Part shown: piece after piece, positions 13,892 through 50,884 of the stretch
How positions within the stretch are numbered: position 1 is the first letter of the stretch
Layout of the letters: each line of letters begins with the position of its first letter
Assembly: GCA_964531975.1 (NCBI GenBank)
Contig: CAZHFU010000001.1
Location: forward strand, 139,177 to 203,176
From: an uncultured Anaerolinea sp.
GTDB taxonomy: Bacteria > Chloroflexota > Anaerolineae > Anaerolineales > UBA4823
Direction: 5' to 3'
Length of the DNA: 64,000 bases
Translations under genes and position numbers: made by a program
The notes under the pieces: model-generated
Seen by the model: the letters and a program-made list of their open reading frames with translations, nothing else
The model's database searches: none
Told to the model about the DNA's origin: nothing

Positions 13892-13958
13892 ATGATCTCC
13901 TCAATAGGCAGGATGAGCGAAAATCGCCTCAAGTTTTGTAGTATACTTCATATCCAGA

Positions 13959-23936: not shown

Positions 23937-24069
23937 CCCCGGCAGGGTGAGAGGCAGGTAATTAAGGCAGCAGCCCGGCTCCGCTTGCCATTCGAAGTGC
24001 GACCAGGCTTAAACCCGCGCTTAATCAAAACAATGATAACCCCTAACAGAGTTGGGGGAAAAGCCGGAA

Positions 24070-24075
24070 TATAAT
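24070..24075 (+). promoter_or_regulatory. Candidate -10 box (TATAAT) 6 nt upstream of the GTG at 24082
   Basis: TATAAT at 24070-24075 and GTG at 24082 directly precede a canonical signal peptide. No SD. Confidence 0.3.
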
Positions 24076-24081
24076 AGCAGC

Positions 24082-25595: not shown

Positions 25596-26762
25596 TTATT
25601 TCTTGTCGAGATATTTCAAACCCGTACCGGTATTGAACAGCACCACCGTCTCATCTGGTTCGATCCAACCCTCATGTAACAGACGCTGTGTCGCCGCCAG
25701 CGTGGCGGCCCCTTCCGGTGCGGCGAAAATACCTTCCTGAGCCGCCAGGAGCGCCTGGGCGTAGATGATCTCGCTGTCCGAAACAGCCACCGCAGTGCCA
25801 CAACTTTCACGAATATCGTGCAAGATGATCTGATCGGCGAAACTTTTTGGCACACGTAACCCCGAAGCGATGGTCTGCGCTCCCACCCAATAATCGCAGA
25901 ACAAGGCGTTATTATCAAAGGCCCGAATGACCGGCGCGCAGCCTTCGGCTTGCACCGCAACCATGCGCGGGCGGGCGGTTGTCTCTAGCCAGCCCATTTC
26001 AGCCATTTCTTTGAACGCTTTCCACATACCTACCAGACCAGTGCCGCCGCCGGTGGGATAGACAATAACGTCCGGCAGTTTCCAGTGGAAATCTTCCGCC
26101 AGCTCGTAGCCCATCACCTTCTTGCCTTCACAGCGATATGGCTCTTTGAACGTCGAGACATCAAACCAACCCTCCAGGCGCGCACGCTCGCCTGCCATAC
26201 CGGCGGCCTCGCTAATTAGCCCGTCGATCAAAATGACCTGCGCCCCGGCAATCCGGCTCTCTTCTATGTTGGCGTAGGGGGTATCTTTAGGCATGTAAAT
26301 GCACGCCTCCAAGCCCGAGCGAGCGGCATAGGCCGCCATCGCGCCGCCGGCATTGCCGGCTGTAGGGATAATGACCCGCTTTACACCCAGCTCTTTGCCC
26401 TTAGACACCGCCGCAGATAGCCCGCGGGCTTTAAACGAACCAGTAGGATTCAGACTTTCGTCTTTCACCATCAGGTTAGTCATGCCTAAAGATTCGCCCA
26501 CGCGCGGCAGCCGCAGCAGCGGGGTATCTCCCTCGCCCAGGCTAATCATATTTTCGGGATCATGTACAGGTAACAGCTCATGCCACCGCCACATACTGCG
26601 TGGACGGCGGATAAACTCATCACGGTCGAGATGGCTGCGCGCCGTTTGCAAATCGTACACGGCCATCAGAGGCGCCTGGCAATCGGTGCAGTAGGTCTGA
26701 ATCACACCCGGGTTGTATGACTGACCGCACGCTGAACATTTCAGATCGATTAAGTATGACAT
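25596..26762 (-). CDS. Threonine-synthase-family PLP enzyme with an N-terminal zinc ribbon
   Basis: 388 aa. N-terminal CSAC..x..CTDC ribbon, PLP-lysine block GSFKARG and fold-type-II PLP blocks (TAGNAGGA, GGGTGL). Confidence 0.85.
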   Translation of the reverse strand: MSYLIDLKCSACGQSYNPGVIQTYCTDCQAPLMAVYDLQTARSHLDRDEFIRRPRSMWRWHELLPVHDPENMISLGEGDTPLLRLPRVGESLGMTNLMVKDESLNPTGSFKARGLSAAVSKGKELGVKRVIIPTAGNAGGAMAAYAARSGLEACIYMPKDTPYANIEESRIAGAQVILIDGLISEAAGMAGERARLEGWFDVSTFKEPYRCEGKKVMGYELAEDFHWKLPDVIVYPTGGGTGLVGMWKAFKEMAEMGWLETTARPRMVAVQAEGCAPVIRAFDNNALFCDYWVGAQTIASGLRVPKSFADQIILHDIRESCGTAVAVSDSEIIYAQALLAAQEGIFAAPEGAATLAATQRLLHEGWIEPDETVVLFNTGTGLKYLDKK

Positions 26763-26765
26763 GGG

Positions 26766-27146
26766 CTAACCGGCTTCCGCCAGGAAACCTTCGACCCTGG
26801 CCCACAACTCCCGGATATTGATGGGCTTAGACATATACACATCGCACCCGGCAGCTAACGCCTTCTCTGCATCGCCACGCAGCGCGTTGGCCGTCACCGC
26901 AATGATTGGCACATATACCAAACGGCGCTTCCCGCTGTTGCGCAGCCGACGAGCCACTTCATAGCCGTCGATATCGGGCAGGTTAATGTCCAAAAGGATT
27001 ACATCTGGGGCCATAGATTCCGCAATTTCAACGCCGCTCAATCCATCTTGCGCCCAGAGGAATTCATAACCGCGCGCTTCTAAGGCGCGCTTTACGAGGG
27101 TCATGTTATCCGAATTATCTTCTACATATAATATTTTATACGGCAT
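26766..27146 (-). CDS. Single-domain response regulator (CheY-like receiver)
   Basis: Start chosen at ATG 27146 (GGAGGA SD 8 nt upstream). Receiver residues are present: VEDN, LLDINLPDIDG, AVTAN, MSKP. Confidence 0.85.
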   Translation of the reverse strand: MPYKILYVEDNSDNMTLVKRALEARGYEFLWAQDGLSGVEIAESMAPDVILLDINLPDIDGYEVARRLRNSGKRRLVYVPIIAVTANALRGDAEKALAAGCDVYMSKPINIRELWARVEGFLAEAG

Positions 27147-28830
27147 GCGAGGCATCCTCCGGTTTTCTCGCCGCGTCTTCGTCGTTGCTTTGCGCGGCTC
27201 TTTGCTCCAACACCTCCACCACCTGGTCAACAAACACCTTAGGCGGCAAGGAACCTTTTTGGTAGATCGCTTCGATATTACCTTTCAAACGGGCGCGGTC
27301 GATAGCCGTCAGATCCTTGGCGCTCACCACTATGACCGGGATATCGCGCGTGTGACTATCATTCTTCAACGCCTGTAAAAAACCAAATCCATCCAGGTTG
27401 GGCATCATTAAATCGGTAATAATCAAATCCGGCCGTCGTTCACGGGCCAGGTTTAGCCCCTCCACCCCATCCGCAGCCTGAAAAACGCGGTAATTCTTGC
27501 GCGCTTCCAAAAACCGGCGCACAAGCAGGGCGTCATCGGGGTTATCATCCATAATAAGCACAGTCGTCGTCTTTTCGTCCAACCGTTCGAGGGCGGCTTG
27601 CAAACCATCGGTGCGCGCGGGCAACTTCCCCTCGGCAAGATTTATATCCACGCTCCATTGATCGCCCAACACGTGCTTCTCAACCGGGAAGGTGTGTCCG
27701 GTGCAGTTAACCACCACCAGTTCTTCCGGCGAAATCACGCCCGCGCTAATCATCTTGCTCAGCCCGGCGAAGGCCACCGCCGTAGCAGGTTCTACAGCTA
27801 AGCCCTCAATTTTTGCCAGATGACGCATGGCTTTGAAAGCGTCCGAATCTGAGACGCTTTCCATTGTACCACCATGCTTCTGCGCCAGCTTCCACAAGTA
27901 GGTATATATTTTACCTGGGTCGCCGGTGGAGAGGATGGCAATTAGGGTTTGTGGGTTCACCGGCGTGGCTGCACTCTCGCCCCGATGAAAAGCTTCCACC
28001 ATCGGGGCGCAACCTTCCACCTGCACAACGCCCATTTTAGGAATATGGTCAATCAACCCCATTTCCAGCAGCTCTTCAAAGCCATGATACACCCCAAGTG
28101 GGCCTAAGCCGCCGCTCACCGATTGGATATACCAATCGGGGCTGCGCCAACCCAATTGCTCCACAATTTCGTAGGCGATAGTTTTCATGGCTTCGCGCGC
28201 CGCCAGGCTGCCCGCCCCACGATCAAGCCATAGGCCACGACGATGGGCAAATTCAGAGGCGATGATCTTCGTCTCATCATACGTCCCGCTAACTTTGATG
28301 ACCTCCGCCCCATACAGAGCCACTTCACGCAGCTTCTCTTGCGGAACCATGCTGGTCATAAAGACCCACAACTTAATCCCCGCCCGAGCGCAGGCCGCGG
28401 CATATGCGACTGCAGCATTGCCCGTGCTTGCGATGACGGTTTCACCAATGCCGGCTTCTACCATCGCCGCTACCGAAACCGCAGCCTGGCGATCTTTAAA
28501 CGAACTCGTGGGGCCAAAACGCTCATCTTTGACATACACGTTTTCATGGCCCAGCTCGCCCGCAAAGCGGCGCGAACGATACATAGGTGTGCCGCCCACC
28601 GTCTCTAGATCGAGGCTGTGCGGGTCTATAATCGGCAAAATATCATGATAGCGCCAAATGTTAAAGGCGCGCCCCGGCAAACCCCGCAGCACTTCGCGTT
28701 TAAAGCCGGCATAATCGTAATGAGCATCTACCCAAGACGATCCGCAGGCTTCGCAAATCACAGGTGTTTGCGGCTGATAGCTTTGTTCGCGCCCGCATTC
28801 AACACAACGCAGAAAAATTGGTAGTGTAAT
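27136..28830 (-). CDS. Threonine-synthase-like PLP enzyme fused to a C-terminal receiver (REC) domain
   Basis: PLP-lysine block SSFKDRQA (Lys codon at 28495-28497) and TGNAAVA. The REC domain is at nt 27139-27570 (IMDDNPDD, IITDLMMPNLDG, VVSAK). The first canonical start is GTG 28761. A start at ATT 28830 is proposed because half of the zinc ribbon lies upstream (see findings). Confidence 0.75.
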   Translation of the reverse strand: MTLPIFLRCVECGREQSYQPQTPVICEACGSSWVDAHYDYAGFKREVLRGLPGRAFNIWRYHDILPIIDPHSLDLETVGGTPMYRSRRFAGELGHENVYVKDERFGPTSSFKDRQAAVSVAAMVEAGIGETVIASTGNAAVAYAAACARAGIKLWVFMTSMVPQEKLREVALYGAEVIKVSGTYDETKIIASEFAHRRGLWLDRGAGSLAAREAMKTIAYEIVEQLGWRSPDWYIQSVSGGLGPLGVYHGFEELLEMGLIDHIPKMGVVQVEGCAPMVEAFHRGESAATPVNPQTLIAILSTGDPGKIYTYLWKLAQKHGGTMESVSDSDAFKAMRHLAKIEGLAVEPATAVAFAGLSKMISAGVISPEELVVVNCTGHTFPVEKHVLGDQWSVDINLAEGKLPARTDGLQAALERLDEKTTTVLIMDDNPDDALLVRRFLEARKNYRVFQAADGVEGLNLARERRPDLIITDLMMPNLDGFGFLQALKNDSHTRDIPVIVVSAKDLTAIDRARLKGNIEAIYQKGSLPPKVFVDQVVEVLEQRAAQSNDEDAARKPEDASHAV

Positions 28831-28845
28831 AAAAGCCTCCCAGAA

Positions 28846-31800
28846 TTAAACGTGGCTGTTCACCGGCAGCTCCAAAATGAGCGTGGAGCCGCAGCCGGCG
28901 CCTTCGCTTTCAGCCCACAGCCGACCGCCATGCAATTCCACTAATCGACGGCTGATAGGCAGGCCCAAGCCTGTGCCCCCGGCCTTGCGCGTGGTGGTGT
29001 TATCCACCTGGCTAAACGCCTCGAATATATCGTCCAGTTTCTCTTTAGGAATGCCAATCCCGGTATCACGGATGCGCACCTGAATACGATCTTCCAGCAC
29101 TTCCACACCGGTAACGCAGTGTTCCAATTCTATCGTGATTCCGCCCGTTTCGGTAAATTTGATGGCATTGCCCATCAGGTTAATTAGAATCTGGCGGATA
29201 CGTACATGGTCGGCGGCGACTACCCATTCACCGGCGGCATCGGCGTTCAGATGGACATACAAATTTTTATCTCTCGCCAAGGCCGCGCCGCTTTGAATAA
29301 CGTCATCGCACAAATCATACAGGTTAATCGGTTCGGGGCTAAGCGTCAGCCGGCCAGCTTCGATCTTTGCCATGTCTAACACATCATTGATGAGATTGAG
29401 CAGGTGCTTGCCGTTCTTCTCAATCAGGCCTAAATCTCCTTCCATCACATTGGTCAGCGGTCCATCCAGCCCTTCAACGATCACCTGGGTAAAGCCCAAA
29501 ATAGAGTTGAGCGGAGTGCGCAGCTCATGGCTCATGTTCGCCAGGAAGGCAGACTTCATGTTGTCCAATTCTCGCAGCCGCTCTACAGTGGCTAACTGCT
29601 CGGCATATAACTTGGCGTTTTGCAAGGCCACCGCCACTTGCGAGGCCAGCGTGGCGTAAGTACGAATGTCATCTTCCGTAAACCAGTTGACGACTTCGGA
29701 CTGGACATCGAAGACGCCCAACAGCACATTGCCAATCACCATCGGCACGGCCAGTTCCGAGCGTGTCATGGGTAAGAGTTCGTTTTCTAAGAACCCTTCC
29801 GCCTGGCGCACATCTCCAATCAGCTTGCCTTGACGGCTGCGGGCGGCTTGCGCCACAATACTATTGGGCTGGTCGGTGGGGATGGACCAACCTTCGGCCG
29901 TTTCCAACCGCCCCAATTCGCCAGCGCCTACGCTCAGGTTAAGAACAGTGGCGTCTTCGTTCATCAGATAAATGTGGGCGTGGTACAAACCAAAACGAAT
30001 TTGGGTGAGGTCTACCACCTGCTGCAGCAGTTCTTGTGGGTCGAGGATGGTAGCTGTGGCGGTCGAGACCTCCGCCACGGCCTGCAGCTCGACTGCGCTC
30101 TTCTGGGTTTGTTCCATCAGGCGGGCGCGCTCCAGGGCTTGCGCCACCTGTTCAGACACCGCCTGCAAGAAAGCTTCTTCCTCAGAGGTCATCCCCCGAG
30201 AACCATCGGGGCGCACCCCCAACACGCCAATCGTCTCGCCGCGCACCAACAAAGGCGCATCTACCGATGCCACCTGGGCCGACTGCCCGAACAACTCGGC
30301 GTAATCTTCCATGATGGGCGCAACCTGCACCCGGTTATACATGTAACCTTGCACACCGCCCAACTGTGTTTCGTAACTGGCCCATGCTTTGCGGCTCATC
30401 TGGCGCTCTAAGGAAGTAAGTTCCGCCACGCGTTCACGCAGGCTGCCTTGTAGACGTAAACCCTGAACCACAACCGCCGCCTGGCCGATTAGCGCAGTGA
30501 TGCGATTTAGCTCGCCTTCACTGATCCGTATCATATTGGCGGATTGGGCGGCAATTGCGCCGAACCACTCCCCTCCTGCCACCAACGGGAAGAATACAAA
30601 ACTACCCATGCTCAGGGTTTGATTAAATCTCGCGCCCACTTCCGCAGGGATGCGCGCATCGTTCAGCATATCTTGCACCACTAAGGGCGCATCCGGCCGC
30701 GCCGCCGACATCAAAGGAAATTGATTAAGTTGAGAGACCGAACCCGGCCGACTTAGCGGGGGTTTCCCCCCCGGCGTCCAAACCTCCGCGTTTAGCATAT
30801 AGGCCGGCGGTTTGCTCACCCAGGGTTGATCGAATAGCTCCAACGCCACCTGATCCATCTCCTGCAAACGACTGGCGTCTACCACCGCGATCAACACGTC
30901 TCGCAGCGAGTTTGAGCTGACCAGGCGCGCTGAGGCAGTGTATAAGGATTGCGTTTCGGAAAGCGCATCTTGGGTCTGCCTGAATAACCGGGCGCTTTCC
31001 AGAGCTTGTGATAGCTGATCGGAGACCAGGTGGATCATCTGCTTCTGTGCAAATGGAACCGGTTTACCATCTTCCGCTTCAAAGCGCAGCGTGCCAATCG
31101 GTTGGCCGCGCGCCTGCAGCGTTGTAACCACCGCATCTCCTACTCGCGTCGGTTTTGAAGGCCCGTGTTGATGCGATTTAACCCGAATTTCGCCCACTTC
31201 AACGGCAATGCGCCCTCGCATCATCTTGTTCAAATCTTTAACCACCACTTGCACAATCGCTTCTTCATCAAACGTGGCGCGCATGTTGGCGCTCATTTCG
31301 CGGAACGCCTGTTCCTGTGCAGCCCGCTCTTGCGCCAGGCTCAACAATCGGCGCGATTGCAGCGAGGCCGAAACCAGCGAGGCGACCTGTTGGAGCAGCG
31401 CCTGACGGCTTGGGTCAAACTGCGCCAGGCTGGCGCTAACTATATTCAGCACCCCGAAGGCGTCATTGCCCAGGAAAAGGGGCGCGCTCATTAAAGCGTG
31501 CATGCCCAATTTGCTCATCTGAACGCCTTCGACAACACTTTCCAGTTCGCCATCGCCCGGCCAGGTCATCAACCGGCGAGCATTAATCACCGCGCCGGCC
31601 GCGCTGCCCTTCGCTGGAACCGGATCGCCCACAGGAACAAGATTCTTGGCCGCCTCATCCAGCGCCAGCATGTCAAACTGCTGGTTTTTTACATCCAAAA
31701 CACCCAGCGAAGCCATCTCAAATTCAGCCACGCGGGCAGCAAAGCTCACCGCAATGGTCAGCAGCGCCTGCTCGCTGGCGGCCTGGCTCATTTCTGCCGC

Positions 31801-39436: not shown

Positions 39437-39437
39437 G

Positions 39438-42400
39438 TTATGCTCCTTCACTCACGACATCCGCGGCAGGATGGCTTGAACCATTGTCATCAGGCCGGGG
39501 CTGTAAATCTTCTTCCGAATCTTCGCTTCTCATGCGAACCACCACATTCCGTCCTAAGGCCATTCCCACTTCGCGCGCGGCCAGGCGCAGCACCTGTTCG
39601 GGGTCGGCGGCGCTGCGCACTCGCTCGGCGACCTGGCGCAGCACTTGCTCGTGACGCGCCCGGCGGCGGCTTTCTTCCAGCAAGCTCAAGCCCTGGATGA
39701 CTGCCGCCCCCTGACCAATCAGCGATTCTGCCTGGCGTATCTGGGCCTCGTTTAGCTTACGGGGTTCGGAAGAGCCAAAGGTCATTAAACCAATCCACTG
39801 ATCCGCCACCACTAACGGGAAAGCCACGAGAGAGCGCCCCAGGTTGGCTAACTGGCCGCGCATTGCCGGGTCTAGCCCTTCAAAAACCATGATGTCTTCA
39901 ATAATATGCGGAGCGTCCCGATTAAACAAATTCAAAATAGGCATCGCCCGGATGGGAAGACTTATACCCAACGGAGGCAAGGACGGGTTTTCCGCGTCTT
40001 GCTTGCCGGCAATCACGGTTACAAAATCAGGAGGTTGCTCAGCCCATGGGGCGCTGAACAACATAATCGCGCCCCGTTCAAACTGGCGCAGCGCCGTCGC
40101 TTTCATAACAGCATCCAAGACGCCGTTGGGGGTGTTGGCGCGGACTACATCTTCAGAGCTAGCATATAGGGCATCGGTGACTGCCAAAGCCGAGCGGGTT
40201 TGCTCCGCCAGCCGCAGCGTTTCGATATGTTCGCTCAAACGCTCGGCCACAGCAGCTAACAACGCCCGCTGATCGGAATCCAGATCGTCTCCACCTTCCA
40301 AGCCAATCTCGCCAATCGTTTCGCCGCGCACACTGAGCGGCTGCACGAAAGGAAGGGCTGTCGCAACTTCCTGGGCAGTCACCTGCGTTTGATCGTAGAC
40401 AAAGGCCGGCGTTTCGGGCTGCTCACGCATATAACTCTGCCAACCTTCGCGGATTAAGCGGCGGGCCGCATCTTCAGCCTCCTGGCGATAGCGCTCTGCT
40501 TGCTCCAACAAGCGCAGATTATCGATTTGCCTGGCAACCTGGGCGGTGATATTCTTTACCCACTCCACTTCATCGGGCTGCCAGGGCGCACCCTTACGGA
40601 TCACTTCCAACTCGCCCACCGCTTCTCCTGTAACGATAATGGGCACATTGAGTATCTGCCCGGGGGCGGCTACATCCAAGGGCCTGGAAGCATCCAGGGG
40701 CTGAACGGCGTTATCTTGGAAAATATAACCCTGCGTTTCAGGTCGATTAATGGCATCCAAAAAAGTGTCATAGCTCGCCGCGGTTCGGCGGCGGGCCTGG
40801 CGTTCAACATCTGCGCGGGCTTGCTGAACCTGCGTGAACAAGGCAGCATTCTCCACGGCCACAGCCAACTGCGCCGCCAATGTTTGGAATGCGGGGAGAA
40901 TTTCTCGATTAAATGCTTGTGGGGTCTGACTCTGCAAATCCAACACGCCCACCACGCGGTCGCCCATCATCAACGGAACCGCAGCTTCGGAACGCGTGTC
41001 TGGCAGCAAGACATTCGCCTTAAAATCCGGCGCGCTTAACGTGTCTTCAACCACTCTGGACTGTTTCGAAACGACTGCCGCGCCGTTCAAAGAATCTAGC
41101 CCCACCGGCAAACGATGGCCGCGGCGCAGCAGCTCGCCACCCGTCTCGCCCGATCCCGCCCGCAAAACGAGCGATTTAGAGCGTTCATCCATCAGGTAAA
41201 TTTGCACATAATACAAATCAAAACTCGATTGGATCATCTCCACGGCGGTCTTCAACAGTTCATCCAGGTCGCGCTGTTCCACCAACGAGCGCCCCACATC
41301 GCCCGCCAGCGTCAATTCACGTGTCCGGGCAGCAACGCGCTGCTCCAGGTCTGTCACGTTCCGGCGCAGCTGCTCAGTCATATCGTTAAAGGCTAACCCC
41401 AAGCGACCCACCTCGTCGCGGGAAGCTACATCAGCGCGGGCCGATAAATTCCCGGCGCGCACCTGCTCGGCCGTCTCTGTTAGCCGCTTAATAGGCCGAG
41501 AAATTGCCTGCGCCAGAATTACCGACAAGAAAGACACCACGCCCGATACCACGCCAATCAGGCCAATTTGGCTTTCGGCTTGCGCGGCCACCGGCGCTAA
41601 CGCCTCCTCCGATCGCTGACGCAGAACCAGGAACCAGCCCAGGCGAACAATCTCTGGGTCGTTCCGCAGCGTTGTTACCGGAGAGCGCGCAATAATTGAC
41701 GAGTAACCACCATATTCGGCCTGCGTAAAAGAGGTAGATGGCAGATCGGCTAATACCTGCATCGCCTCAGGATTTGGAAGACTAAACTGACCGTCTATGA
41801 TAGCCCGCGGCGCATCATTCGAGAAATATAGATCGGCATAGGTTTGTTGACCTGGTAAATCGCCGGAAATAACATCGATAATGCCTTGCAAATCGTAGGT
41901 GCTGCGTATCACCCCAAGCACCTCTTGCCCATCATTATCAAACACCGGTACGGCGATAACCATAACGTTCTTGCCCACGCTTGTATCATACGCGGGCTGG
42001 CTGAAATAAATCGACCCTCGGCCTTCCTGATAGGCGTTCCGCCACCAATCTTCGTCCGCCTGGTAATAATCGGTGGTAATGTGGCTGGCGGCAATCAGCG
42101 CCCCATGTTTATCGGTTAATATGGTTTCGGTGTTATAAGGGAAAATATTATCGTACTCTTGGAGATCCAAAGAGATTTGGTTTTGCAAGAACGACGCCAG
42201 CAGCGGGTTATCATCCTCTTGGTTTTGCGCAGCTTGCCGCCATAAAATGTCTGTCTGCTGAATTTGATATGCCACCCCTAGCTTATCCGCATCGTAAGCG
42301 CTGTTCGAGGCGATCAGCGCCTTTTGAATGGATTCACTGATATAAAAGGTTTTTAGCGCGTCCACCTGGGCAGATAGCAGATCGGCCACGGCCTGGGCAC

Positions 42401-43097
42401 GGTTGGCGGCGATGGCCTGGAGACTGTCACCAATGCTGTTGGTCAGGATTTCAGAAGTGCGACGGCCATTGATCCCGCCCAAAAAAACCGAAATTATCAA
42501 CGAAAAGAAGATAAACCCAACCAGCAGCTTACCGGTTAGCTGCATTTCGCGCGTCATCCACACCAGGCTCAGCAAAATTAACGTTAAAATCACCAGGGCG
42601 CCTGCTTGGGTGACGTTATACATGAACGGCGACTGAGCGCGTCCAAAGGGTTGGAAAAAGTTAATCAGACTGCCAATGACCACCACTCCCAAGGCAATGG
42701 AGATCGCGTAGACCAGATAACGATCCGGCAAGGTGAACAGCGCCAGGGTCAAAATAAGCATAAAACCTGCCAGCAAAAAGATGACGCTAACGCGATCAAA
42801 CGCTAAATGTAAACTCACGCCGGCTAACAACAGGCTGCTCAGCACCATAAACATGCTGGCCAAGGCTCGCTCCGGCCTTGCCAGGCGTACGGCCGCCAGG
42901 TTCATGCCAGACGCCACAACCGTTATTGCCACGGCCACCCAAATAACAGGCTGATAGGTGCTGACCAGTGCGTACCCTTGCAGGGCGAGCAATAAAACGC
43001 ATAACGCAATGCTGATAGAAGCCGAGATCCTAACCCGCCTTGGGTTGATCAATCCACTTACCGGCTGGAGATTACTGCTCGAAAGGCTTTGATTCAT
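39438..43097 (-). CDS. Membrane sensor (6 TM, Cache-like, TM, HAMP, GAF, two half-GAF modules, GAF, truncated-GAF cap) with no output domain seen
   Basis: 1219 aa. Cache-like block YYQADEDWWRNAY..VMVIAVPVFDNDGQEVLGVIRSTY and HAMP block SRPIKRLTETAEQVRAGNLSARA..DEVGRLGLAFNDM. Confidence 0.85.
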   Translation of the reverse strand: MNQSLSSSNLQPVSGLINPRRVRISASISIALCVLLLALQGYALVSTYQPVIWVAVAITVVASGMNLAAVRLARPERALASMFMVLSSLLLAGVSLHLAFDRVSVIFLLAGFMLILTLALFTLPDRYLVYAISIALGVVVIGSLINFFQPFGRAQSPFMYNVTQAGALVILTLILLSLVWMTREMQLTGKLLVGFIFFSLIISVFLGGINGRRTSEILTNSIGDSLQAIAANRAQAVADLLSAQVDALKTFYISESIQKALIASNSAYDADKLGVAYQIQQTDILWRQAAQNQEDDNPLLASFLQNQISLDLQEYDNIFPYNTETILTDKHGALIAASHITTDYYQADEDWWRNAYQEGRGSIYFSQPAYDTSVGKNVMVIAVPVFDNDGQEVLGVIRSTYDLQGIIDVISGDLPGQQTYADLYFSNDAPRAIIDGQFSLPNPEAMQVLADLPSTSFTQAEYGGYSSIIARSPVTTLRNDPEIVRLGWFLVLRQRSEEALAPVAAQAESQIGLIGVVSGVVSFLSVILAQAISRPIKRLTETAEQVRAGNLSARADVASRDEVGRLGLAFNDMTEQLRRNVTDLEQRVAARTRELTLAGDVGRSLVEQRDLDELLKTAVEMIQSSFDLYYVQIYLMDERSKSLVLRAGSGETGGELLRRGHRLPVGLDSLNGAAVVSKQSRVVEDTLSAPDFKANVLLPDTRSEAAVPLMMGDRVVGVLDLQSQTPQAFNREILPAFQTLAAQLAVAVENAALFTQVQQARADVERQARRRTAASYDTFLDAINRPETQGYIFQDNAVQPLDASRPLDVAAPGQILNVPIIVTGEAVGELEVIRKGAPWQPDEVEWVKNITAQVARQIDNLRLLEQAERYRQEAEDAARRLIREGWQSYMREQPETPAFVYDQTQVTAQEVATALPFVQPLSVRGETIGEIGLEGGDDLDSDQRALLAAVAERLSEHIETLRLAEQTRSALAVTDALYASSEDVVRANTPNGVLDAVMKATALRQFERGAIMLFSAPWAEQPPDFVTVIAGKQDAENPSLPPLGISLPIRAMPILNLFNRDAPHIIEDIMVFEGLDPAMRGQLANLGRSLVAFPLVVADQWIGLMTFGSSEPRKLNEAQIRQAESLIGQGAAVIQGLSLLEESRRRARHEQVLRQVAERVRSAADPEQVLRLAAREVGMALGRNVVVRMRSEDSEEDLQPRPDDNGSSHPAADVVSEGA

Positions 43098-45532
43098 GAT
43101 TGGCGCTCCTGATCCGGCAGAGAAACCTTATCCCCGCCGTTTTCGCCCACGTGTAGGCGAGCCTGGATGCGGGCCACATTGAGGCCCCGTCCCAATTCGC
43201 GCGCCGCCACCTGTAGAGCTTCCGGCACGCTTTGTGTACGTTCCACCTGTTCGATAATCTCTCGCAAGCGCACATCCCGTTGGGCGCGCTGCTGCGCTTG
43301 TTCCACCTGCTGGGCGTTGCGCAAAGCAATCGCCAACTGGTTGGCAATGCCACGCAGCAAATCTGCATCCTGCTCGGTAACGCCGTTGGTTACATTTTGC
43401 TGCACGTCAATGGCGCCCAAAACATCATCCCCTAGTAGAATAGGCACAGCAATTTCCGAGCGTGTGTCGGGCAACAGCGGATTGGGCAGCCAACTTGAAT
43501 CGGCGGCGGTGTTTTGCACCACCACCTCTGTCCCGGTCTCACACGCCTGGCCCACCAGGCCACGCCCCCGTCCAATGCGATGATGATTTTCCAACATGGC
43601 TTTACCAGCTTCGCCTGTGCCGCCCACCATGTTCAAGTATTCGCCACTCTTATCCCACAAGTAAATATGAACATGGTAGTAATTGAAGGCAAATTGGAGC
43701 AGTTCTACCACTTCGCTCACTAATTGCTGCGTATCCAAGATTCTGGAAAGTCGCCGGCTGACATCACCACTAAGCTCCAGGGCGCGGGTGCGATCTTTAA
43801 CGCGCTGCTCCAACCCGCCGAGAGTTTCTTTCAACTGGCCGGTCATTTGATTAAATGTGCGCCCCAAAAGCCCAATTTCATCTCGCGACTGTTCAGGAGC
43901 CTGCACATCCAGGTTTCCATCTGCCACCTGGCGGGCCACCTGGGTTAATTGCCCAATGGGTCGGGTCAAATATCCCACAATTAGCGTGGCAAATGCAATC
44001 ACCAACACCGTAATTAGTATCGAAAGCAAAATTGACGAACGGGTCTGTTCCGAAATAGCTGTTTCAACAAGTCTCACCGGCGTACGGGTCAACACGACCC
44101 ACGGCGCTAACCGCACAGGGACGGCCGTTGAAAGGGTGTCCTCATCTACGGCTACCCCATACGAAGTGAAGTAGGGCGAATTGCTCAGGTTGCGCAGTCC
44201 TTCGATAACATCATTTTGCCCAAGTGAGATATCCGCCGCCCGACCTGTGGGCAGGCGATGTTGTTTTTGCAAATTAGCAGCTTGCTCATCGGTGAGGCTG
44301 GTATATGTTTTATAGATTAAGTTTGGCCTGGAACTGTGCGCAACGCGCATGTAATTATCGTTATCTAATAAGACCACATAGCCGCCGCTTTGATCGCTTT
44401 CATAAGCGCTCATCACCAGCCATTGCAGCACGGCAGCGTTATACTCTACCCGCAGCACACCCACCACATCGCCCACCGCGTTACGTATCGGAGCCGTAAA
44501 ATAGATACGCGGGAGATCATCGTAAAACATCACCGTCGAAACAAATGGCCGTCCGCTTTGCAAAGACAATCGGAAATATTGTCGTTCCGCTTCGCTGAGA
44601 CCTTCTTTGGAAGGATTCGTATCTAATATATCCCTTCCCTTAACATCCAATAAAGCGTAGGAGGAAATAAAAACCGGGTCCTTAAGCGCCAGCGAACGAA
44701 GCACCTGCTCGGCCAAACCCGTCTCCTGAGCTGCGCCTTGCACAACGCCTACCAACTCCGGTAAACGCGCCTCCGTGCGCACGGCGTCCAGCGTTTGCTG
44801 CACAAAAGTATCGACCACGCCCTGAACGGCATTAGCCGCGGTAGACAACCGCGTGCGCGCTTCCGTACGCTTGTCGTTAGAAAGACGTTGGGTGTTCAAA
44901 GCCGACAAGACAACTAAAGGCACAAGGGCCACAAAGAGAAAGGCCATAGTAAAACGCACCCGCAGCGTAGACCGGCTCAGCAAACGCCGATTGGCAAAAA
45001 CATAACCCAGCGCAAAAAGACTAACGATAATTGCGGTAACAATGTAATTTCTTTCGATGTAGGTATGGGGGGCGTAATTATCATATACCAGGAATACCGC
45101 CGCCTGAATTACGCCCAACACAAAGGCCAGCAGCGCCCCCCTCGTGCTTAAAGCGCCTACCGTCAGCCCCACAATCTGAACAATAGAAATTAAAGCCAGG
45201 GTGACCCCTTGCCCAGGGACAATATCCGCCATATAGATGACCGGCAGAATGATCTGTCCTAGAACCAACAGCCACACGCCTTGCCGCACCCGCCCGCGGC
45301 TAGACAACCAGGCAGAAACGCCGGCAACCAGGGCTAACCCAACCAACACCTCCATACCGGAAGGCGGAGTGTCGGTAATCTGGTAGAAAATAAATGTACC
45401 AACCGCGGTAACGCCCATCAACAAGGCAATCACCACACTTACTAACACGGCATGGGCGCGGCGCTCTGCTTCGGATGGGTTAATGTAACCCTGTAAGGAA
45501 CTTTTTTCAAAAGCTCGTTTTAGCATTGTCAT
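43094..45532 (-). CDS. Membrane sensor (6 TM, Cache-like, TM, HAMP, GAF, truncated-GAF cap) with no output domain seen
   Basis: 812 aa. HAMP block TRPIGQLTQVARQVADGNLDVQA..DEIGLLGRTFNQM and GAF motif YYHVHIYLWD..NPLLPDTRSEIAVP. Confidence 0.85.
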   Translation of the reverse strand: MTMLKRAFEKSSLQGYINPSEAERRAHAVLVSVVIALLMGVTAVGTFIFYQITDTPPSGMEVLVGLALVAGVSAWLSSRGRVRQGVWLLVLGQIILPVIYMADIVPGQGVTLALISIVQIVGLTVGALSTRGALLAFVLGVIQAAVFLVYDNYAPHTYIERNYIVTAIIVSLFALGYVFANRRLLSRSTLRVRFTMAFLFVALVPLVVLSALNTQRLSNDKRTEARTRLSTAANAVQGVVDTFVQQTLDAVRTEARLPELVGVVQGAAQETGLAEQVLRSLALKDPVFISSYALLDVKGRDILDTNPSKEGLSEAERQYFRLSLQSGRPFVSTVMFYDDLPRIYFTAPIRNAVGDVVGVLRVEYNAAVLQWLVMSAYESDQSGGYVVLLDNDNYMRVAHSSRPNLIYKTYTSLTDEQAANLQKQHRLPTGRAADISLGQNDVIEGLRNLSNSPYFTSYGVAVDEDTLSTAVPVRLAPWVVLTRTPVRLVETAISEQTRSSILLSILITVLVIAFATLIVGYLTRPIGQLTQVARQVADGNLDVQAPEQSRDEIGLLGRTFNQMTGQLKETLGGLEQRVKDRTRALELSGDVSRRLSRILDTQQLVSEVVELLQFAFNYYHVHIYLWDKSGEYLNMVGGTGEAGKAMLENHHRIGRGRGLVGQACETGTEVVVQNTAADSSWLPNPLLPDTRSEIAVPILLGDDVLGAIDVQQNVTNGVTEQDADLLRGIANQLAIALRNAQQVEQAQQRAQRDVRLREIIEQVERTQSVPEALQVAARELGRGLNVARIQARLHVGENGGDKVSLPDQERQS

Positions 45533-46599
45533 GGCAGATAGACCTTCCCCGCCAGACCAGCAGAGGCTGACGAATTGGGGACCAACCCGGCCAAGGACGG
45601 GGCCGGAAGATATATAGGATCAAATATCTTGCGTAAATCCATTAAGTACGTCAGGCTGCCGGTCGAGATAAGAAAATCCATATTCAACCGGCCCACATCG
45701 AGCAGAGATAGGCCTTGATCCGAAGGAGTTTGTCCAAATAAGATCTGGTTGTCTTCCAGGTTGTAAATATCTACATCACCAAAAGTAACCGCGCTCTGGG
45801 CAATTCCAGCTCTCGCGGCAACCACGCCGCGCGTAAATTGCTGATGCGTTTGGCGATATTCAACCGCTTCAAACCAGGCCCGCAGAAAAGCCTGGATTTT
45901 CTCTGGGTTTCGCTTAGCTACGCTGGAACGAAAGACGATCACATCTGGCAGCAAAGCCGAAACCTCGGTAGCCTGTAGAAGCGCGGCGCCTTTGTCAATC
46001 GCCTGTTTGGTAAATGGCTCATACACGATGCCAGCCTGGATTTGATCGGGTAGCAAGGCAGGAACCTGTTCTACAGGCACATTGACCAAGACGACATCGC
46101 GGGTGGTTAATCCGGCGCGCTGCAAAATGTCACGGATAACCATCTCTCCCGATGAGCCTAGCGCCACACCAATGCGTTTGCCTTTCAAGTCTTGGGCGGT
46201 GGTAATGTCTGGCGCGGTCGCCAGGCTAACCAGGCCGCCCGAATCGTATGCTGCTACGCAATTCATTTCTGTACGACTGGCGGCGTTCATCAAATCGATC
46301 ATGCCTAGCAGGCTGCCATCTAGCTTACCGGAAACCAGGTCGGGGACCACTTCCGAGAAATTTTCATAATAAATTGGCTGCACCTTAACGCCATACTTAT
46401 CGAACAACCCCAGAGCTTGCGCCACCACCAGCGTATAATCGCCCTCCCACAATGTCCACTCTACCCGCAGCGCGTCATCATCGCCGGGTTTACCAGGCGC
46501 AGGGTTTGAAACGGGCGTACAACCAACTGCGCCGACCAACACAGCCGCCGCCAACCCCAGGCGCACCCACTTCACAATCATTACTTGGAAAGCGTTCAT
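45529..46599 (-). CDS. Lipoprotein substrate-binding protein (NMT1/SsuA/NitT-TauT-like) with no cognate permease or ATPase
   Basis: 356 aa. Lipobox VGAVGC and a periplasmic-binding-protein type-2 pattern (KGKRIGVALGSSGE). ATGA overlaps on both sides. Confidence 0.7.
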   Translation of the reverse strand: MNAFQVMIVKWVRLGLAAAVLVGAVGCTPVSNPAPGKPGDDDALRVEWTLWEGDYTLVVAQALGLFDKYGVKVQPIYYENFSEVVPDLVSGKLDGSLLGMIDLMNAASRTEMNCVAAYDSGGLVSLATAPDITTAQDLKGKRIGVALGSSGEMVIRDILQRAGLTTRDVVLVNVPVEQVPALLPDQIQAGIVYEPFTKQAIDKGAALLQATEVSALLPDVIVFRSSVAKRNPEKIQAFLRAWFEAVEYRQTHQQFTRGVVAARAGIAQSAVTFGDVDIYNLEDNQILFGQTPSDQGLSLLDVGRLNMDFLISTGSLTYLMDLRKIFDPIYLPAPSLAGLVPNSSASAGLAGKVYLP

Positions 46600-47903
46600 C
46601 CCTTTACCTCCGTGCGGCGCATGCCAATCTGCACCCGGGCGCTGTCGGCGCTTAAGGCCGTACCCAACTCTTGCGCAGCAATCTGAAGCACTTCCTCCAC
46701 GCCGGCGGCGGTTTGCAGCTTTTGGTAAACCAGGTTAGCCTGGGCCTCTCGTTCTGCCTGGCGCTGGGTTTGCACATACCGGCGGGCGTTCTCCAGCGTT
46801 ACCCCAACCTGGTTAGAAAGCGCCTGGATCAGCAGGACATCTTGCTGATTTAAGCCCTCCAGTTTATTGGATTGTACATCCAGCACCCCCAGCACCTCAC
46901 CGCCCGATAGGATGGGAACAGCCACCTCCGCACGGGTATCCGGCAGTAGGGGGTTAGGTATCCAATCAATGGAAGAGGCTGTGTCGGAGGCAAGCATCGC
47001 CTTTTTCTGCTCTGCCGCTCGCCCCACCAGACCGCGCCCTTTAATAACACGGTGCTTCCGGGTTACCAGCGTCCGCCCGGCCGATCCGGTTCCGCCGCGC
47101 ATCTCCAGGTATTCACGCCGGGCGTCCCATAAATAGATTTGCGTATGGTAATAACCGAACGCCTCGCCCACTTCATCGACCACTGTGGTAATTAACAAGT
47201 CGGGGTCAAGGATGGTGGTCAGGCGTTGAGAAACCTGGAAGCTGGATTGCAGGGCACGGGTGCGCTCTTCGATGCGCCGCTCTAAATCCACCTGGCCCTT
47301 TACCAGGCGCTCACGAGCAAGCCCTTCGCGGATCTGCGCCAAACGGATATATCTCTCCAACAAAACAACCCCAGCGACAACCACGCCGGTTAAAACAATC
47401 AAAATTACGCTGCCAGTCACCCACCCGGTATTGCTGATATTCATTTCAGAATTAAGGAGGCTGATCGCGCCGGATTGCACCAGGAGCCCCGTGATCGCTA
47501 AGGTGGCAATCATCAATCCAAACGCCGCCCAGCCGACCTGCGCGCCAAATAGCGTGACCGTCATAACTACAAAGGTTAGCAAAAACAAACGAGAATCGCC
47601 GCGCAAGCCCCCTTCATATATATCCATTACGGATATGAAATACAACAAAAGCAAGAAAAAGCCGGCCCGCAGCCAATAGGGCAATTTGACATAGGTGATA
47701 ATCAGTAATACCGCATAGACCCCGATATAGATGTATGCCAGGTATCCAAGCCCGCGGTTGATCACATCATAACTTGCGCCTGCCACGGCAAAAAGACCCA
47801 GCACCGAGGCGGCGCGGAGAATCACCTGCATCACCTCTGCCCGCCATTCGGTAATAATTTGCTCGGCGCTCTGTACAGAAGACGTATCGGTTGAATTGAT
47901 CAT
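46596..47903 (-). CDS. Membrane sensor (about 6 TM, coiled coil, GAF, truncated-GAF cap) with no output domain seen
   Basis: 435 aa. GAF motif YYHTQIYLWD..NPLLPDTRAEVAVP. GAGGA SD upstream. Confidence 0.85.
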   Translation of the reverse strand: MINSTDTSSVQSAEQIITEWRAEVMQVILRAASVLGLFAVAGASYDVINRGLGYLAYIYIGVYAVLLIITYVKLPYWLRAGFFLLLLYFISVMDIYEGGLRGDSRLFLLTFVVMTVTLFGAQVGWAAFGLMIATLAITGLLVQSGAISLLNSEMNISNTGWVTGSVILIVLTGVVVAGVVLLERYIRLAQIREGLARERLVKGQVDLERRIEERTRALQSSFQVSQRLTTILDPDLLITTVVDEVGEAFGYYHTQIYLWDARREYLEMRGGTGSAGRTLVTRKHRVIKGRGLVGRAAEQKKAMLASDTASSIDWIPNPLLPDTRAEVAVPILSGGEVLGVLDVQSNKLEGLNQQDVLLIQALSNQVGVTLENARRYVQTQRQAEREAQANLVYQKLQTAAGVEEVLQIAAQELGTALSADSARVQIGMRRTEVKG

Positions 47904-47991
47904 CGCGAATCCTCAGTTTGCACTTTTAGCCAAACCCACCCATTTATTTTCTATCACCAACAACAGCTTGCCTGTAAAGCAGCCATTAATT

Positions 47992-50781: not shown

Positions 50782-50884
50782 ACCTTGCTACCTTCCGACA
50801 TTAACGGATGGAAGCATTATGCCATAGGCCGAGGGCCAAAGCGTTGGGGTTGCGGAGAATTAGTTTGGAAATGTTAGTGTAAGA

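What the first reader, a model, noticed from the sequence alone, without database searches (positions are those of the whole stretch)
25596..47903. 22-kb translationally coupled sensory super-operon with many inputs, one kinase and an enzymatic (PLP) output
Ten consecutive minus-strand genes have almost no intergenic DNA. There are ATGA start/stop overlaps at 46596-46599, 45529-45532, 43094-43097 and 35882-35885. Other junctions are TAA-c-ATG at 39434-39440, a 22-nt overlap at 35055-35076, an 11-nt overlap at 27136-27146 and a 3-nt gap at 26763-26765. The gene order is: 6TM-GAF; lipoprotein SBP; 6TM-Cache-HAMP-GAF (812 aa); 6TM-Cache-HAMP-multiGAF (1219 aa); multiTM-GAF-PAS-GAF-PAS-GAF (1184 aa); orphan ParA; 2076-aa soluble PAS/GAF histidine kinase; ThrC-like-REC fusion; stand-alone REC; ThrC-like. 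Four of the five large sensors show no transmitter, cyclase, phosphodiesterase or DNA-binding output that I can recognise. The block has only one kinase and no DNA-binding regulator. The only phospho-acceptor domains sit on a PLP enzyme and on a single-domain receiver. I infer a multi-input signalosome that feeds one kinase and controls an amino-acid-metabolising enzyme post-translationally. The kinase + REC-effector + lone REC (phosphate sink or buffer) layout matches the logic of chemotaxis sinks and Detocs-type systems, but with different parts. I know of no described system with this composition.
Basis: partly seen in the sequence, partly recalled or inferred. Interest (0 to 1): 0.85.

Follow-up and report, generated by a model that had tools for sequence, protein, structure and literature searches.

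The report
Kinase-less receptors feeding a kinase–enzyme relay
This is a real gene cluster, apparently undescribed and conserved in several hundred Anaerolineales (Chloroflexota) genomes, in which membrane sensors with no recognisable output all end in the same novel ~47-residue tail and sit next to one soluble histidine kinase, a threonine-synthase-like enzyme fused to a phospho-receiver, and a lone receiver.

Summary

The core gene order is conserved in relatives: capped sensors, then kinase, then ThrC-paralogue-REC, then REC. In 80 species-level Anaerolineales genomes:
- a kinase lies directly upstream of the fusion in 59/61 evaluable loci
- at least one output-less sensor lies within 10 kb upstream in 53/54
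- a lone REC is the next gene in 47/58

New findings:
- The output-less sensors all end in a conserved ~47-aa "cap". It is a truncated GAF N-terminus with a RELGxxLG motif, modelled as a helical hairpin, and has no Pfam match.
- The partner kinases carry a conserved N-terminal peptide (xxR[ILVM]xx[LMI][FLY]).
- When kinases are split, the N-terminal piece ends in a cap.

- The last gene is a bona fide threonine synthase, linked in only about half of relatives.
- ParA is an optional part (about 5 of 85 loci).
- The left border cuts a conserved larger locus that adds a GAF-kinase, an OmpR-type DNA-binding regulator and a REC-REC-GAF-kinase. "One kinase, no DNA-binding regulator" therefore holds only inside the chosen borders.

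Physical coupling of sensors to the kinase, phosphotransfer and the enzyme's reaction are all inferred.

The parts
51704..53044 (-). u3: soluble GAF-HisKA-HATPase kinase (446 aa).
   Evidence: Pfam. An equivalent gene is in the same position in L092, L094, L096 and L100.
50885..51703 (-). u2: OmpR-family response regulator (REC + Trans_reg_C, 272 aa). Abuts u3 with 0 nt between them.
   Evidence: Pfam, gap. A regulator gene sits in the same slot in L092, L094, L096 and L100; Trans_reg_C is detected in L092, L094 and L100, REC only in L096.
47992..50781 (-). u1: REC-REC-GAF-GAF-HisKA-HATPase (929 aa), a kinase with N-terminal receivers. Ends 88 nt before g10.
   Evidence: Pfam. H-box THDLKNP at about residue 713. 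Equivalents are present in L038, L050, L065, L074, L092 and L094, and as REC-GAF in L096. Its second REC is the closest window paralogue of the g2 receiver (35.5% identity).
47989..48018 (-). Promoter-like site (TTGCCA-18-TAGAAT, 10/12) in the u1/g10 junction.
   Evidence: This is a consensus match only, and the number of sites in the region does not exceed shuffles.
46596..47903 (-). g10: MASE11 (6-7 TM)-GAF-cap sensor, 435 aa. Cap at residues 381-432 (nt 46608-46763).
   Evidence: Pfam MASE11 59.1 bits, GAF_2 59.3 bits. Cap HMM 76.9 bits. AF2 model pLDDT 88: the last GAF helix runs on as one helix 353-397, then a turn, then helix 402-416. 119/120 homologues end in the cap.
45529..46599 (-). 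g9: NMT1/SsuA-family substrate-binding lipoprotein (356 aa). One N-terminal hydrophobic segment and a Cys at a lipobox-like AVGC.
   Evidence: Pfam NMT1 80.1 bits; NCBIfam SsuA_fam 116 bits, below the cutoff of 163.5. NMT1 SBP genes are also inside the sensor block in L028, L068, L092 and L094.
43094..45532 (-). g8: multi-TM-dCache-TM-HAMP-GAF-cap sensor, 812 aa. Cap at residues 748-798 (nt 43139-43291).
   Evidence: Pfam, TM scan, cap HMM 75.0 bits. No Pfam hit to the tail at E<=5.
39438..43097 (-). g7: multi-TM-dCache-TM-HAMP-GAF-2 half-GAF modules-GAF-like-cap sensor, 1219 aa. Cap at residues 1145-1196 (nt 39510-39665).
   Evidence: Pfam. Half-GAF HMM hits at 767-877 and 877-976, 125 and 117 bits. 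Cap HMM 78.6 bits.
35882..39436 (-). g6: multi-TM-GAF-PAS-GAF-PAS-half-GAF-GAF-like-cap sensor, 1184 aa from ATG 39436. Cap at residues 1131-1182 (nt 35891-36046).
   Evidence: Pfam, TM scan, half-GAF hit at 843-961, 106 bits, cap HMM 87.8 bits.
35055..35885 (-). g5: ParA/Soj-type P-loop ATPase (276 aa, KGGVGKTT). An optional accessory part.
   Evidence: Pfam AAA_31 143 bits. Found in the same slot, directly before the kinase, in L006/L010, L031, L044, L077 and L096/L097; absent from most other loci. A 60%-identical homologue lies in an unrelated polysaccharide locus.
28846..35076 (-). g4: soluble 2076-aa histidine kinase. N-terminal peptide DLKNRLDEIF (residues 6-15, nt 35032-35061), then PAS/GAF/half-GAF arrays, H-box His1850 (MSHELRTPL) and HATPase_c.
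   Evidence: Pfam. No TM segment and H-box position. N-terminal motif found in 47/74 kinases of related loci against 2/108 capped sensors. A kinase lies immediately upstream of the fusion in 59/61 loci.
27136..28761 (-). g3: ThrC-paralogue (PALP) fused to a C-terminal receiver, 541 aa. PLP lysine in SSFKDRQ; receiver residues D405/D406, D450, S480 and K502 are invariant.
   Evidence: Pfam PALP 238 bits plus REC 68.8 bits. NF006050 232.8 bits, below the cutoff of 303. Best solved relatives are threonine synthases 2ZSJ and 1UIM. Invariant columns. The family is found in Anaerolineales genomes.
26766..27146 (-). g2: stand-alone receiver (126 aa from ATG 27146), most like the receivers of hybrid kinases.
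   Evidence: Pfam REC 89.5 bits. Best NCBIfam stretches are the receiver ends of HrmK, BarA, RcsC, TorS and ArcB. It is the next gene after the fusion in 47/58 loci, sometimes duplicated, and fused onto the enzyme in P0362/P0363.
25596..26762 (-). g1: bona fide threonine synthase with an N-terminal zinc ribbon, 388 aa.
   Evidence: NF006050 equivalog 562.8 bits against a cutoff of 303, covering residues 1-386. Only 33% identical to the g3 PALP domain. Within three genes downstream in 30/58 loci.

Best explanation
The block is the core of a lineage-specific multi-component phospho-signalling locus of Anaerolineales.

Its receptors are modular proteins. Each has a variable input (MASE11, multi-TM, dCache, PAS, probably working with the NMT1-type binding protein), then HAMP and/or GAF, then a constant ~47-residue C-terminal cap. 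None of them has a kinase domain. The cap is a truncated GAF N-terminus that models as a helical hairpin continuing the last GAF helix.

I propose that the cap is the receptors' output. It would dock the receptors onto the soluble kinase g4, either on its conserved N-terminal peptide plus coiled coil or on its half-GAF modules. Several receptors would thereby set the activity of one kinase. This is the logic of chemoreceptors and CheA, built from unrelated parts.

The kinase would then phosphorylate two receivers: the one fused to a threonine-synthase paralogue (g3), switching that PLP enzyme, and the stand-alone receiver g2. The latter acts either as a sink or as a relay towards the receiver-bearing kinase u1 and the OmpR-type regulator u2 encoded just upstream. 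ParA is an optional accessory.

Shown: the anatomy, the conservation of order, the cap and the N-terminal motif, and intact catalytic and phospho-acceptor residues.

Inferred: receptor-kinase contact, phosphotransfer routes, the enzyme's reaction and the direction of control.
For: Gene order:
- Sensors-kinase-PALP-REC-REC recurs in all inspected relatives.
- It is quantified in 80 species genomes: kinase adjacent 59/61; at least one capped sensor 53/54; at least two capped sensors 45/54; lone REC next 47/58.
- It persists at 52% (L100) and 38-40% (L092, L094) identity of marker proteins.

The cap:
- It is a defined module, with 145 unique copies and consensus .qAerE...n.I.QkIQsat.vE..LQ.AaRELG.aLGa.
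- It ends a median of 9 residues from the C-terminus; only 2/155 copies are internal.
- 119/120 g10 homologues carry it, with many different input domains.
- It has no Pfam match.
- The AF2 model shows a helix-turn-helix continuing the last GAF helix.
- It aligns with the start of a full GAF domain in g4.

The kinase:
- The N-terminal motif is specific to these kinases: 47/74 kinases against 2/108 capped sensors, 2/487 unannotated ORFs and 1/209 other annotated ORFs.

Fusion and fission evidence:
- In L031, L058, L074, L082 and L088 the kinase itself carries HAMP-GAF, and in L092 dCache-HAMP-GAF.
- In L010 and L023 a split kinase's N-terminal fragment ends in a cap.
- PALP-REC-REC fusions exist.

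Catalytic residues:
- H-box His, the receiver Asp/Ser/Lys residues and the PLP Lys are all present, and in g3 they are invariant across 32 orthologues.

Operon structure:
- Start/stop overlaps.
Against: - There is no experimental or structural evidence of receptor-kinase contact.
- The g3 model has a low-confidence linker (pLDDT below 50 for residues 356-387), so nothing can be said about how the receiver would control the enzyme.
- The big kinases have their own PAS/GAF inputs and could work without the neighbouring sensors.
- A variant locus (L096/L097) keeps sensors-ParA-kinase-REC-ThrC but lacks the PALP-REC fusion, so the enzyme fusion is not indispensable to the system.
- The upstream OmpR regulator offers a conventional transcriptional output.
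- The loci in the statistics were selected through the fusion protein, which biases those counts.
Confidence: 0.5

Rival explanations
1. The real output is transcriptional. The sensors and g4 feed a relay: g4 passes phosphate to the lone receiver g2 and/or to the receivers of u1, u1's kinase then acts, and the OmpR-type regulator u2 follows. The ThrC-paralogue-REC is a side branch, sink or metabolic brake rather than the main effector.
For: u3-u2-u1 lie on the same strand, 88 nt upstream, and are syntenic in L092, L094, L096, L100, L038, L050, L065 and L074. g2 resembles hybrid-kinase receivers, and its closest paralogue in the window is u1's second receiver (35.5% identity). The L096/L097 variant lacks the enzyme fusion but keeps the rest.
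Against: No Hpt domain was detected in the window genes scanned, and none is listed among the (sometimes truncated) domain lists for related loci. u3/u2 abut with no intergenic gap, like an ordinary self-contained pair. A promoter-like site separates u1 from g10. The PALP-REC fusion is about 70% identical across the order, which indicates strong selection on it.
Confidence: 0.3
2. The adjacent sensors are independent proteins that do not signal through g4. They would act through other partners, or by binding and buffering ligands, and cluster only because of tandem duplication and shared regulation. The cap would be just a dimerisation or stability element.
For: The sensors are paralogous and vary in number from 1 to 4. 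Long kinases have their own PAS/GAF sensors. No interaction was tested.
Against: Capped sensors lie upstream of the kinase in 53/54 loci. The cap sequence is very strongly conserved, with 97-99% conservation at several positions across different input architectures. Split kinases end their N-terminal half in a cap, and sensor-kinase fusions exist. Start/stop overlaps tie the sensors to the kinase gene.
Confidence: 0.15
3. The PALP domain of g3 is an input rather than an output. It would bind an amino-acid or phospho-ester metabolite and gate its own receiver's access to the kinase, reporting metabolic state into the pathway. The lone receiver would be the effector.
For: The lone receiver is kept even where the fusion is missing. 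Active-site positions differ from canonical ThrC: T. thermophilus N154/S155 correspond to an invariant D-R-G in the g3 family. The score is below the ThrC equivalog cutoff.
Against: The PLP lysine and the glycine-rich phosphate loop are invariant, as expected of an active enzyme. From general knowledge, known receiver-enzyme fusions (CheB, PleD, RpfG) use the receiver as the input.
Confidence: 0.1
4. It is a Detocs-like or other anti-phage defence system.
Against: No PADLOC model matches beyond generic receiver-domain and P-loop ATPase similarity. The neighbourhood is chromosomal and housekeeping. The locus is order-wide and vertically conserved at about 70% identity, not patchy. The periplasmic ligand sensors and binding protein point to environmental sensing.
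Confidence: 0.02

Closest known systems
Chemosensory arrays (MCP receptors + CheA kinase + CheY/CheB receivers, sometimes with ParA-like ParC/PpfA positioning ATPases)
   Same: Many kinase-less receptors share variable inputs, HAMP and a constant C-terminal signalling module. They are encoded beside one soluble kinase, an enzyme-fused receiver (compare CheB) and a single-domain receiver (compare CheY). A ParA-type ATPase is occasionally present.
   Different: There is no MCPsignal domain, no CheW, and no CheA-type Hpt/P5 kinase. The kinase is a HisKA-type kinase, the constant module is GAF plus a 47-aa cap, and the enzyme is a PLP threonine-synthase paralogue. The resemblance is in logic only.
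Multikinase networks and accessory-sensor ('three-component') systems, e.g. GacS/RetS/LadS or LuxP-LuxQ (from general knowledge)
   Same: Several sensor proteins converge on one kinase, and a periplasmic binding protein is encoded with a membrane sensor.
   Different: The accessory sensors here have no HisKA/DHp domain through which to heterodimerise. They carry a distinct, conserved C-terminal cap.
Receiver-enzyme response regulators (CheB, PleD, RpfG, RssB)
   Same: A canonical receiver with all phospho-acceptor residues is fused to a catalytic domain and encoded next to its presumptive kinase.
   Different: The output is a fold-type II PLP enzyme (PALP/ThrC family) placed N-terminal to the receiver. 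I found no description of this combination.
Threonine synthase family (ThrC; cysteate synthase as a diverged member)
   Same: The g3 PALP domain aligns end to end with solved threonine synthases (2ZSJ, 1UIM, 2D1F) and keeps the PLP lysine.
   Different: It is only 33% identical to the neighbouring true ThrC and scores below the equivalog cutoff. Substrate-phosphate-site positions are altered, with an invariant D-R-G. Its reaction is unknown.
Sda-type helical-hairpin regulators of sporulation kinases (from general knowledge)
   Same: A short helical hairpin is the candidate element that contacts and modulates a histidine kinase.
   Different: There is no sequence relationship. The cap is tethered to a receptor and derives from a GAF N-terminus. 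The analogy is untested.

Membership tests
Two-component phosphotransfer system | Kinase with a HisKA H-box histidine and a HATPase_c catalytic domain | tested here: met
   g4: HisKA 63.5 bits, HATPase_c 103.8 bits. His1850 lies in MSHELRTPL.
Two-component phosphotransfer system | Receiver domains with the acidic pair, phospho-acceptor Asp, Ser/Thr and Lys | tested here: met
   g3: D405/D406, D450, S480 and K502 are invariant in 32 orthologues. g2: REC 89.5 bits, with ED...D...T...K read from the sequence.
Two-component phosphotransfer system | Actual phosphotransfer from g4 to the g3 and g2 receivers | not testable with these tools
   This needs in-vitro phosphotransfer profiling. Only adjacency is available (59/61 and 47/58 loci).
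Threonine synthase (NCBIfam NF006050 equivalog) | Whole-protein score at or above the curated cutoff of 303 bits | tested here: met
   g1 (25596-26762): 562.8 bits over residues 1-386.
Threonine synthase (NCBIfam NF006050 equivalog) | The same cutoff applied to the fused paralogue g3 | tested here: not met
   g3 scores 232.8 bits, below 303. TIGR00260 is only marginal (172.9 against 167.1). g3 is therefore ThrC-like, but is not filed as threonine synthase.
Chemotaxis-type signalling array | Receptors carry the MCPsignal domain; a CheA (Hpt, CheW-like P5) and CheW are present | tested here: not met
   No such Pfam or NCBIfam hits in any of the 13 genes of the locus or in the rescanned segments.
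Detocs / known anti-phage defence systems | Match to PADLOC defence-system models | tested here: not met
   Only weak hits to receiver-domain-containing or P-loop ATPase models at 18-28 bits.
GAF domain (for the cap) | A complete GAF fold or profile match | tested here: not met
   The cap has no Pfam hit at E<=5. It aligns only with the first ~45 residues of a GAF in g4 and models as two helices without a sheet. It is a GAF-derived stub, not a GAF domain.
ParA-positioned signalling clusters (ParC/PpfA type) | The ParA-like ATPase is a conserved member of the signalling operon | tested here: inconclusive
   It is present in the same slot in L006/L010, L031, L044, L077 and L096/L097, but absent from most loci. 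Among fusion-called loci with more than 5 kb of upstream sequence it was found in 1 of 54.

The most novel reading that the evidence does not exclude
Anaerolineales would possess a previously unrecognised receptor class. In it, modular transmembrane or soluble sensors have a kinase domain replaced by a 47-residue GAF-derived helical-hairpin 'cap'. The cap plugs non-covalently into a soluble histidine kinase, either on its conserved N-terminal peptide or on its half-GAF modules. This would build a multi-receptor signalling array that is analogous to, but evolutionarily independent of, chemoreceptor-CheA arrays. The array would directly switch a PLP-dependent threonine-synthase paralogue by phosphorylation, which would be a new kind of response-regulator output.
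Probability: 0.35. Interest if true: 0.85.

Novelty: new variant of a known kind. Interest (0 to 1): 0.72.

Why it matters
If the model holds, it adds three things to bacterial signal transduction.

First, a new transmitter module: the cap. It would let kinase-less receptors share one kinase, a second and independent solution to the design problem that chemoreceptor arrays solve.

Second, a new response-regulator output: a fold-type II PLP enzyme of the threonine-synthase family. That implies direct phospho-control of an amino-acid or phospho-ester reaction by environmental sensors.

Third, a conserved marker system for Anaerolineales, which are abundant filamentous bacteria of digesters, sediments and activated sludge whose signalling is essentially unstudied.

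The cap and the kinase N-terminal motif are short, sharply conserved and easy to test for interaction, so the hypothesis is directly testable.

Tried and rejected
- Standard outputs hidden in the sensors: Pfam and NCBIfam on whole proteins, and Pfam at E<=5 on all unassigned segments, found only partial GAF matches.
- Defence-system reading: the PADLOC scan was negative.
- RNA elements: an Rfam gathering scan of the whole window gave no hits.
- Promoter and terminator scans: counts do not exceed shuffles. Only one 10/12 promoter-like site, at the u1/g10 junction, is worth noting.
- Foldseek of the g10 model against the PDB returned only GAF domains (fRMsr, PtsP), nothing informative for the cap.
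- The AF2 model of g3 was meant to show receiver/enzyme packing, but the linker confidence is too low to use.
- Searching for an internal cap in sensor-kinase fusions found none. In fusions the GAF leads straight into half-GAF modules.
- Matching the number of half-GAF modules in the kinase to the number of sensors: short ~620-aa kinases have three modules and usually three sensors, but flank truncation and modules inside the sensors make this only suggestive.
- Context of unfused ThrC-paralogue relatives, to infer the reaction: the contigs were too short.
- Literature: seven full-text searches found no description of a ThrC-REC fusion or of capped GAF sensors. The library lacks most subscription journals, and one census paper could not be opened.

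Full report
**1. Observation**

The ten minus-strand ORFs exist at the stated coordinates.
- four ATGA overlaps
- TAAcATG at 39434-39440
- a 22-nt overlap of ParA and kinase
- an 11-nt overlap of the fusion gene and the receiver gene (receiver started at ATG 27146, as gene callers also do)
- a 3-nt gap before the last gene

The one real gap inside the block is 84 nt, between the kinase and the fusion gene.

| Gene | Architecture |
|---|---|
| g10 | MASE11-GAF |
| g9 | NMT1/SsuA-type binding protein |
| g8 | multiTM-dCache-HAMP-GAF |
| g7 | multiTM-dCache-HAMP-GAFx2 |
| g6 | multiTM-GAF-PAS-GAF-PAS-GAF |
| g5 | ParA |
| g4 | 2076-aa soluble PAS/GAF HisKA-HATPase kinase |
| g3 | PALP+REC |
| g2 | REC |
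| g1 | PALP |

A hydropathy scan agrees with multi-TM N-termini for g6, g7, g8 and g10 and with a soluble kinase.

**2. Are the sensors really output-less?**

No transmitter, cyclase, phosphodiesterase, MCP-signal or DNA-binding family appears in g6, g7, g8 or g10. I rescanned all unassigned segments at E<=5. The only hits were to the last third of GAF profiles (positions ~80-136), and there were none at all to the C-terminal tails.

The tails are nonetheless not random. The four proteins end in one shared motif. An HMM built from it hits only these four ORFs in the six-frame translation of the window. It also hits the C-terminus of every output-less sensor in relatives.

Across 145 unique copies the consensus is .qAerE...n.I.QkIQsat.vE..LQ.AaRELG.aLGa, with several positions 90-99% conserved. 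The motif ends a median of 9 residues before the stop, and only 2 of 155 copies are internal.

Of 120 homologues of g10, 119 carry the motif. They sit behind very different input domains: dCache, sCache, 4HB_MCP, PilJ, ABC_sub_bind, MASE11 and PAS.

The AlphaFold2 model of g10 (pLDDT 88) shows the last GAF helix continuing unbroken through the first half of the cap (353-397), then a turn, a second helix (402-416) and a disordered end. Foldseek finds only GAF domains for the rest of the model.

In the closest relative the kinase is split, and its N-terminal fragment (PAS-cap) aligns with g4 residues 618-833. The cap lies over the first ~45 residues of a complete GAF domain of g4. The cap is therefore a GAF-derived stub that has become a conserved terminal module.

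**3. Conservation**

The exact fusion protein occurs in several metagenome assemblies. Its 120 best database relatives are all PALP+REC at 69-82% identity, and those that carry a source name are named Anaerolineales, Anaerolineae or Chloroflexota.

A scan of one genome per species found at least 466 genomes encoding a relative. The best 80 are 67-82% identical and nearly all are Anaerolineales MAGs. They include Brevefilum fermentans, Ca. Villigracilis and Ca. Aquidulcis.

At 50% clustering the full-length fusion collapses into about six clusters, so it is a tight, lineage-specific family.

I annotated the 80 loci with my own ORF caller and with profiles derived from the window proteins:

| Feature | Loci |
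|---|---|
| Kinase is the gene immediately upstream | 59/61 |
| At least one capped sensor within 10 kb upstream | 53/54 |
| At least two capped sensors (mode 2-3) | 45/54 |
| Stand-alone receiver is the next gene downstream, sometimes doubled | 47/58 |
| True ThrC within three genes downstream | 30/58 |
| ParA upstream | 1/54 |

These loci were chosen through the fusion protein, which biases the counts towards its neighbours.

**4. The borders are too narrow**

Only 88 nt upstream of g10, on the same strand, lie three more genes:
- a REC-REC-GAF-GAF-kinase (u1)
- an OmpR-type regulator (u2)
- a GAF-kinase (u3), which abuts u2 with no gap

Loci centred on g10 orthologues at 38-40% identity (L092, L094) keep the upstream unit. 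So do a ParA orthologue locus (L096/L097) and a 52%-identical fusion locus (L100). In each, a kinase, a regulator and a (REC-)GAF(-kinase) stand in front of the sensors. Several of the 80 loci that reach far enough show the same.

The argument 'only one kinase and no DNA-binding regulator' therefore depends on where the border was drawn. A 10/12 promoter-like site sits in the u1/g10 gap. That is compatible with a separate transcript, but it is only a consensus match.

**5. The enzyme genes**

g1 is a bona fide threonine synthase (NF006050, 562.8 bits against a cutoff of 303, full length including the zinc ribbon).

The PALP domain of g3 is an old paralogue, 33% identical to g1. It scores below the equivalog cutoff (232.8 bits). 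It aligns end to end with solved threonine synthases and keeps the PLP lysine. At the positions of T. thermophilus N154/S155 the family has an invariant D-R-G. Which residues of ThrC bind the substrate phosphate is from my memory of the literature, not tested here.

Its receiver keeps all five signature residues, invariant in 32 orthologues.

Unfused relatives at 40-54% identity exist and are also mostly sub-threshold ThrC-like proteins. Their contigs were too short to give context, so the reaction is unknown.

The AF2 model of g3 is only moderate, with an unreliable linker.

PALP-REC-REC proteins exist, which links g3 and g2 functionally. Conversely, L096/L097 has sensors-ParA-kinase-REC-ThrC with no fusion.

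**6. The kinase**

Short versions in relatives (~620 aa) consist of four parts:
- an N-terminal peptide
- a coiled coil
- three ~100-aa 'half-GAF' modules, which match only the C-terminal third of GAF profiles
- HisKA-HATPase

The N-terminal peptide follows xxR[ILVM]xx[LMI][FLY], for example DLKNRLDEIF in g4. It occurs in 47/74 kinases of the loci, against 2/108 capped sensors, 2/487 unannotated ORFs and 1/209 other annotated ORFs. The two capped exceptions (L010, L023) are N-terminal fragments of split kinases that end in a cap.

In L031, L058, L074, L082 and L088 the kinase itself carries HAMP-GAF in front of the half-GAF modules. In L092 it carries dCache-HAMP-GAF. These are natural sensor-kinase fusions.

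**7. Mechanism**

These fusion and fission events show that the sensor modules and the kinase are interchangeable as one or two polypeptides. They also show that a free N-terminal piece ends in a cap.

This is the basis for proposing that the cap is the docking and transmitter element, and that the kinase's N-terminal peptide or half-GAF modules are its receptor. Phosphotransfer to the g3 and g2 receivers follows from adjacency and intact residues.

All of this is inference. No interaction or phosphotransfer could be computed here.

**8. ParA**

ParA recurs in exactly the same slot, between the last sensor and the kinase, in L006/L010, L031, L044, L077 and L096/L097. It is absent from most loci, and a 60%-identical homologue sits in a polysaccharide locus. 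It is an optional accessory. A role in positioning is possible but unsupported.

**9. Comparison with known systems, and novelty**

In logic, the system works most like a chemosensory array: many kinase-less receptors, one kinase, an enzyme-fused receiver and a lone receiver. It fails every membership feature of that family, having no MCPsignal, CheA or CheW.

It is a HisKA-type two-component or phosphorelay system with accessory sensors, and so a new variant of a known kind. It has two apparently new parts, the cap and the ThrC-like receiver output. No PADLOC defence model matches.

Full-text searches found no description of it. The library is incomplete, so prior description in a subscription journal cannot be excluded.

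**10. Verdict**

- The multi-input-to-one-kinase idea and the enzyme-receiver idea are plausible and backed by conservation.
- ParA, the terminal ThrC and 'no DNA-binding regulator' need correction.
- The biochemical claims are untested.

Interest 0.72.

Noticed in passing
window 47992-53044 (-): A REC-REC-GAF-GAF-kinase, an OmpR-type regulator and a GAF-kinase lie directly upstream of the finding on the same strand. They are syntenic in distant relatives, so the conserved locus has about 13 genes, not 10.
   Followed up: yes
window 9814-10590 and 10551-11372 (+): Two further overlapping ParA/MinD/CbiA-type P-loop ATPase genes lie 25 kb away. The ParA inside the cluster is therefore not the only such gene in the window.
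   Followed up: no
L096/L097 (GCA_027494035.1, 3.65-Mb contig), locus coordinates 1-14129: A variant of the system has GAF-kinase, regulator, REC-GAF, three HAMP-GAF sensors, ParA, GAF-kinase, REC and ThrC, but no PALP-REC fusion. The lone receiver and true ThrC stay adjacent.
   Followed up: partly
P0362/P0363; L100 10001-12127: PALP-REC-REC triple-domain proteins (708-715 aa, 52-53% identity) are followed by two more single receivers and a GNAT acetyltransferase. A GNAT of ~290 aa also follows the receivers in L094/L095.
   Followed up: partly
short kinases in L011-L013, L017, L019, L020, L022, L026, L035, L039, L051, L063, L087: The ~620-aa kinases have three half-GAF modules and are usually preceded by three capped sensors. 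Kinases that carry their own PAS/GAF arrays are usually preceded by two. This is suggestive of one-to-one pairing or of a sensor absorbed by fusion, but it is not established.
   Followed up: partly
window 45529-46599 (-) together with 27136-28761 (-): The binding protein is SsuA/NMT1-like, a family that binds sulfonates, nitrate and bicarbonate. The g3 PALP domain scores higher on the cysteate-synthase model (122 bits) than true ThrC g1 does (70 bits). Both scores are far below the cutoff, so a sulfonate link is only a lead.
   Followed up: no
window 6281-8374 (+): A 697-aa ORF with no Pfam match at E<=1e-5.
   Followed up: no
window 53249-55866 (-): A soluble HisKA-HATPase kinase (415 aa) overlaps the start of an HflX GTPase gene by 4 nt. 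This is an unusual pairing, and it is kept in the identical metagenome contigs L089/L091.
   Followed up: no
window 24052-25515 (+): A CAP/SCP-domain protein with three LysM repeats converges on the end of the cluster. It marks the right-hand border, and relatives have different genes there.
   Followed up: no
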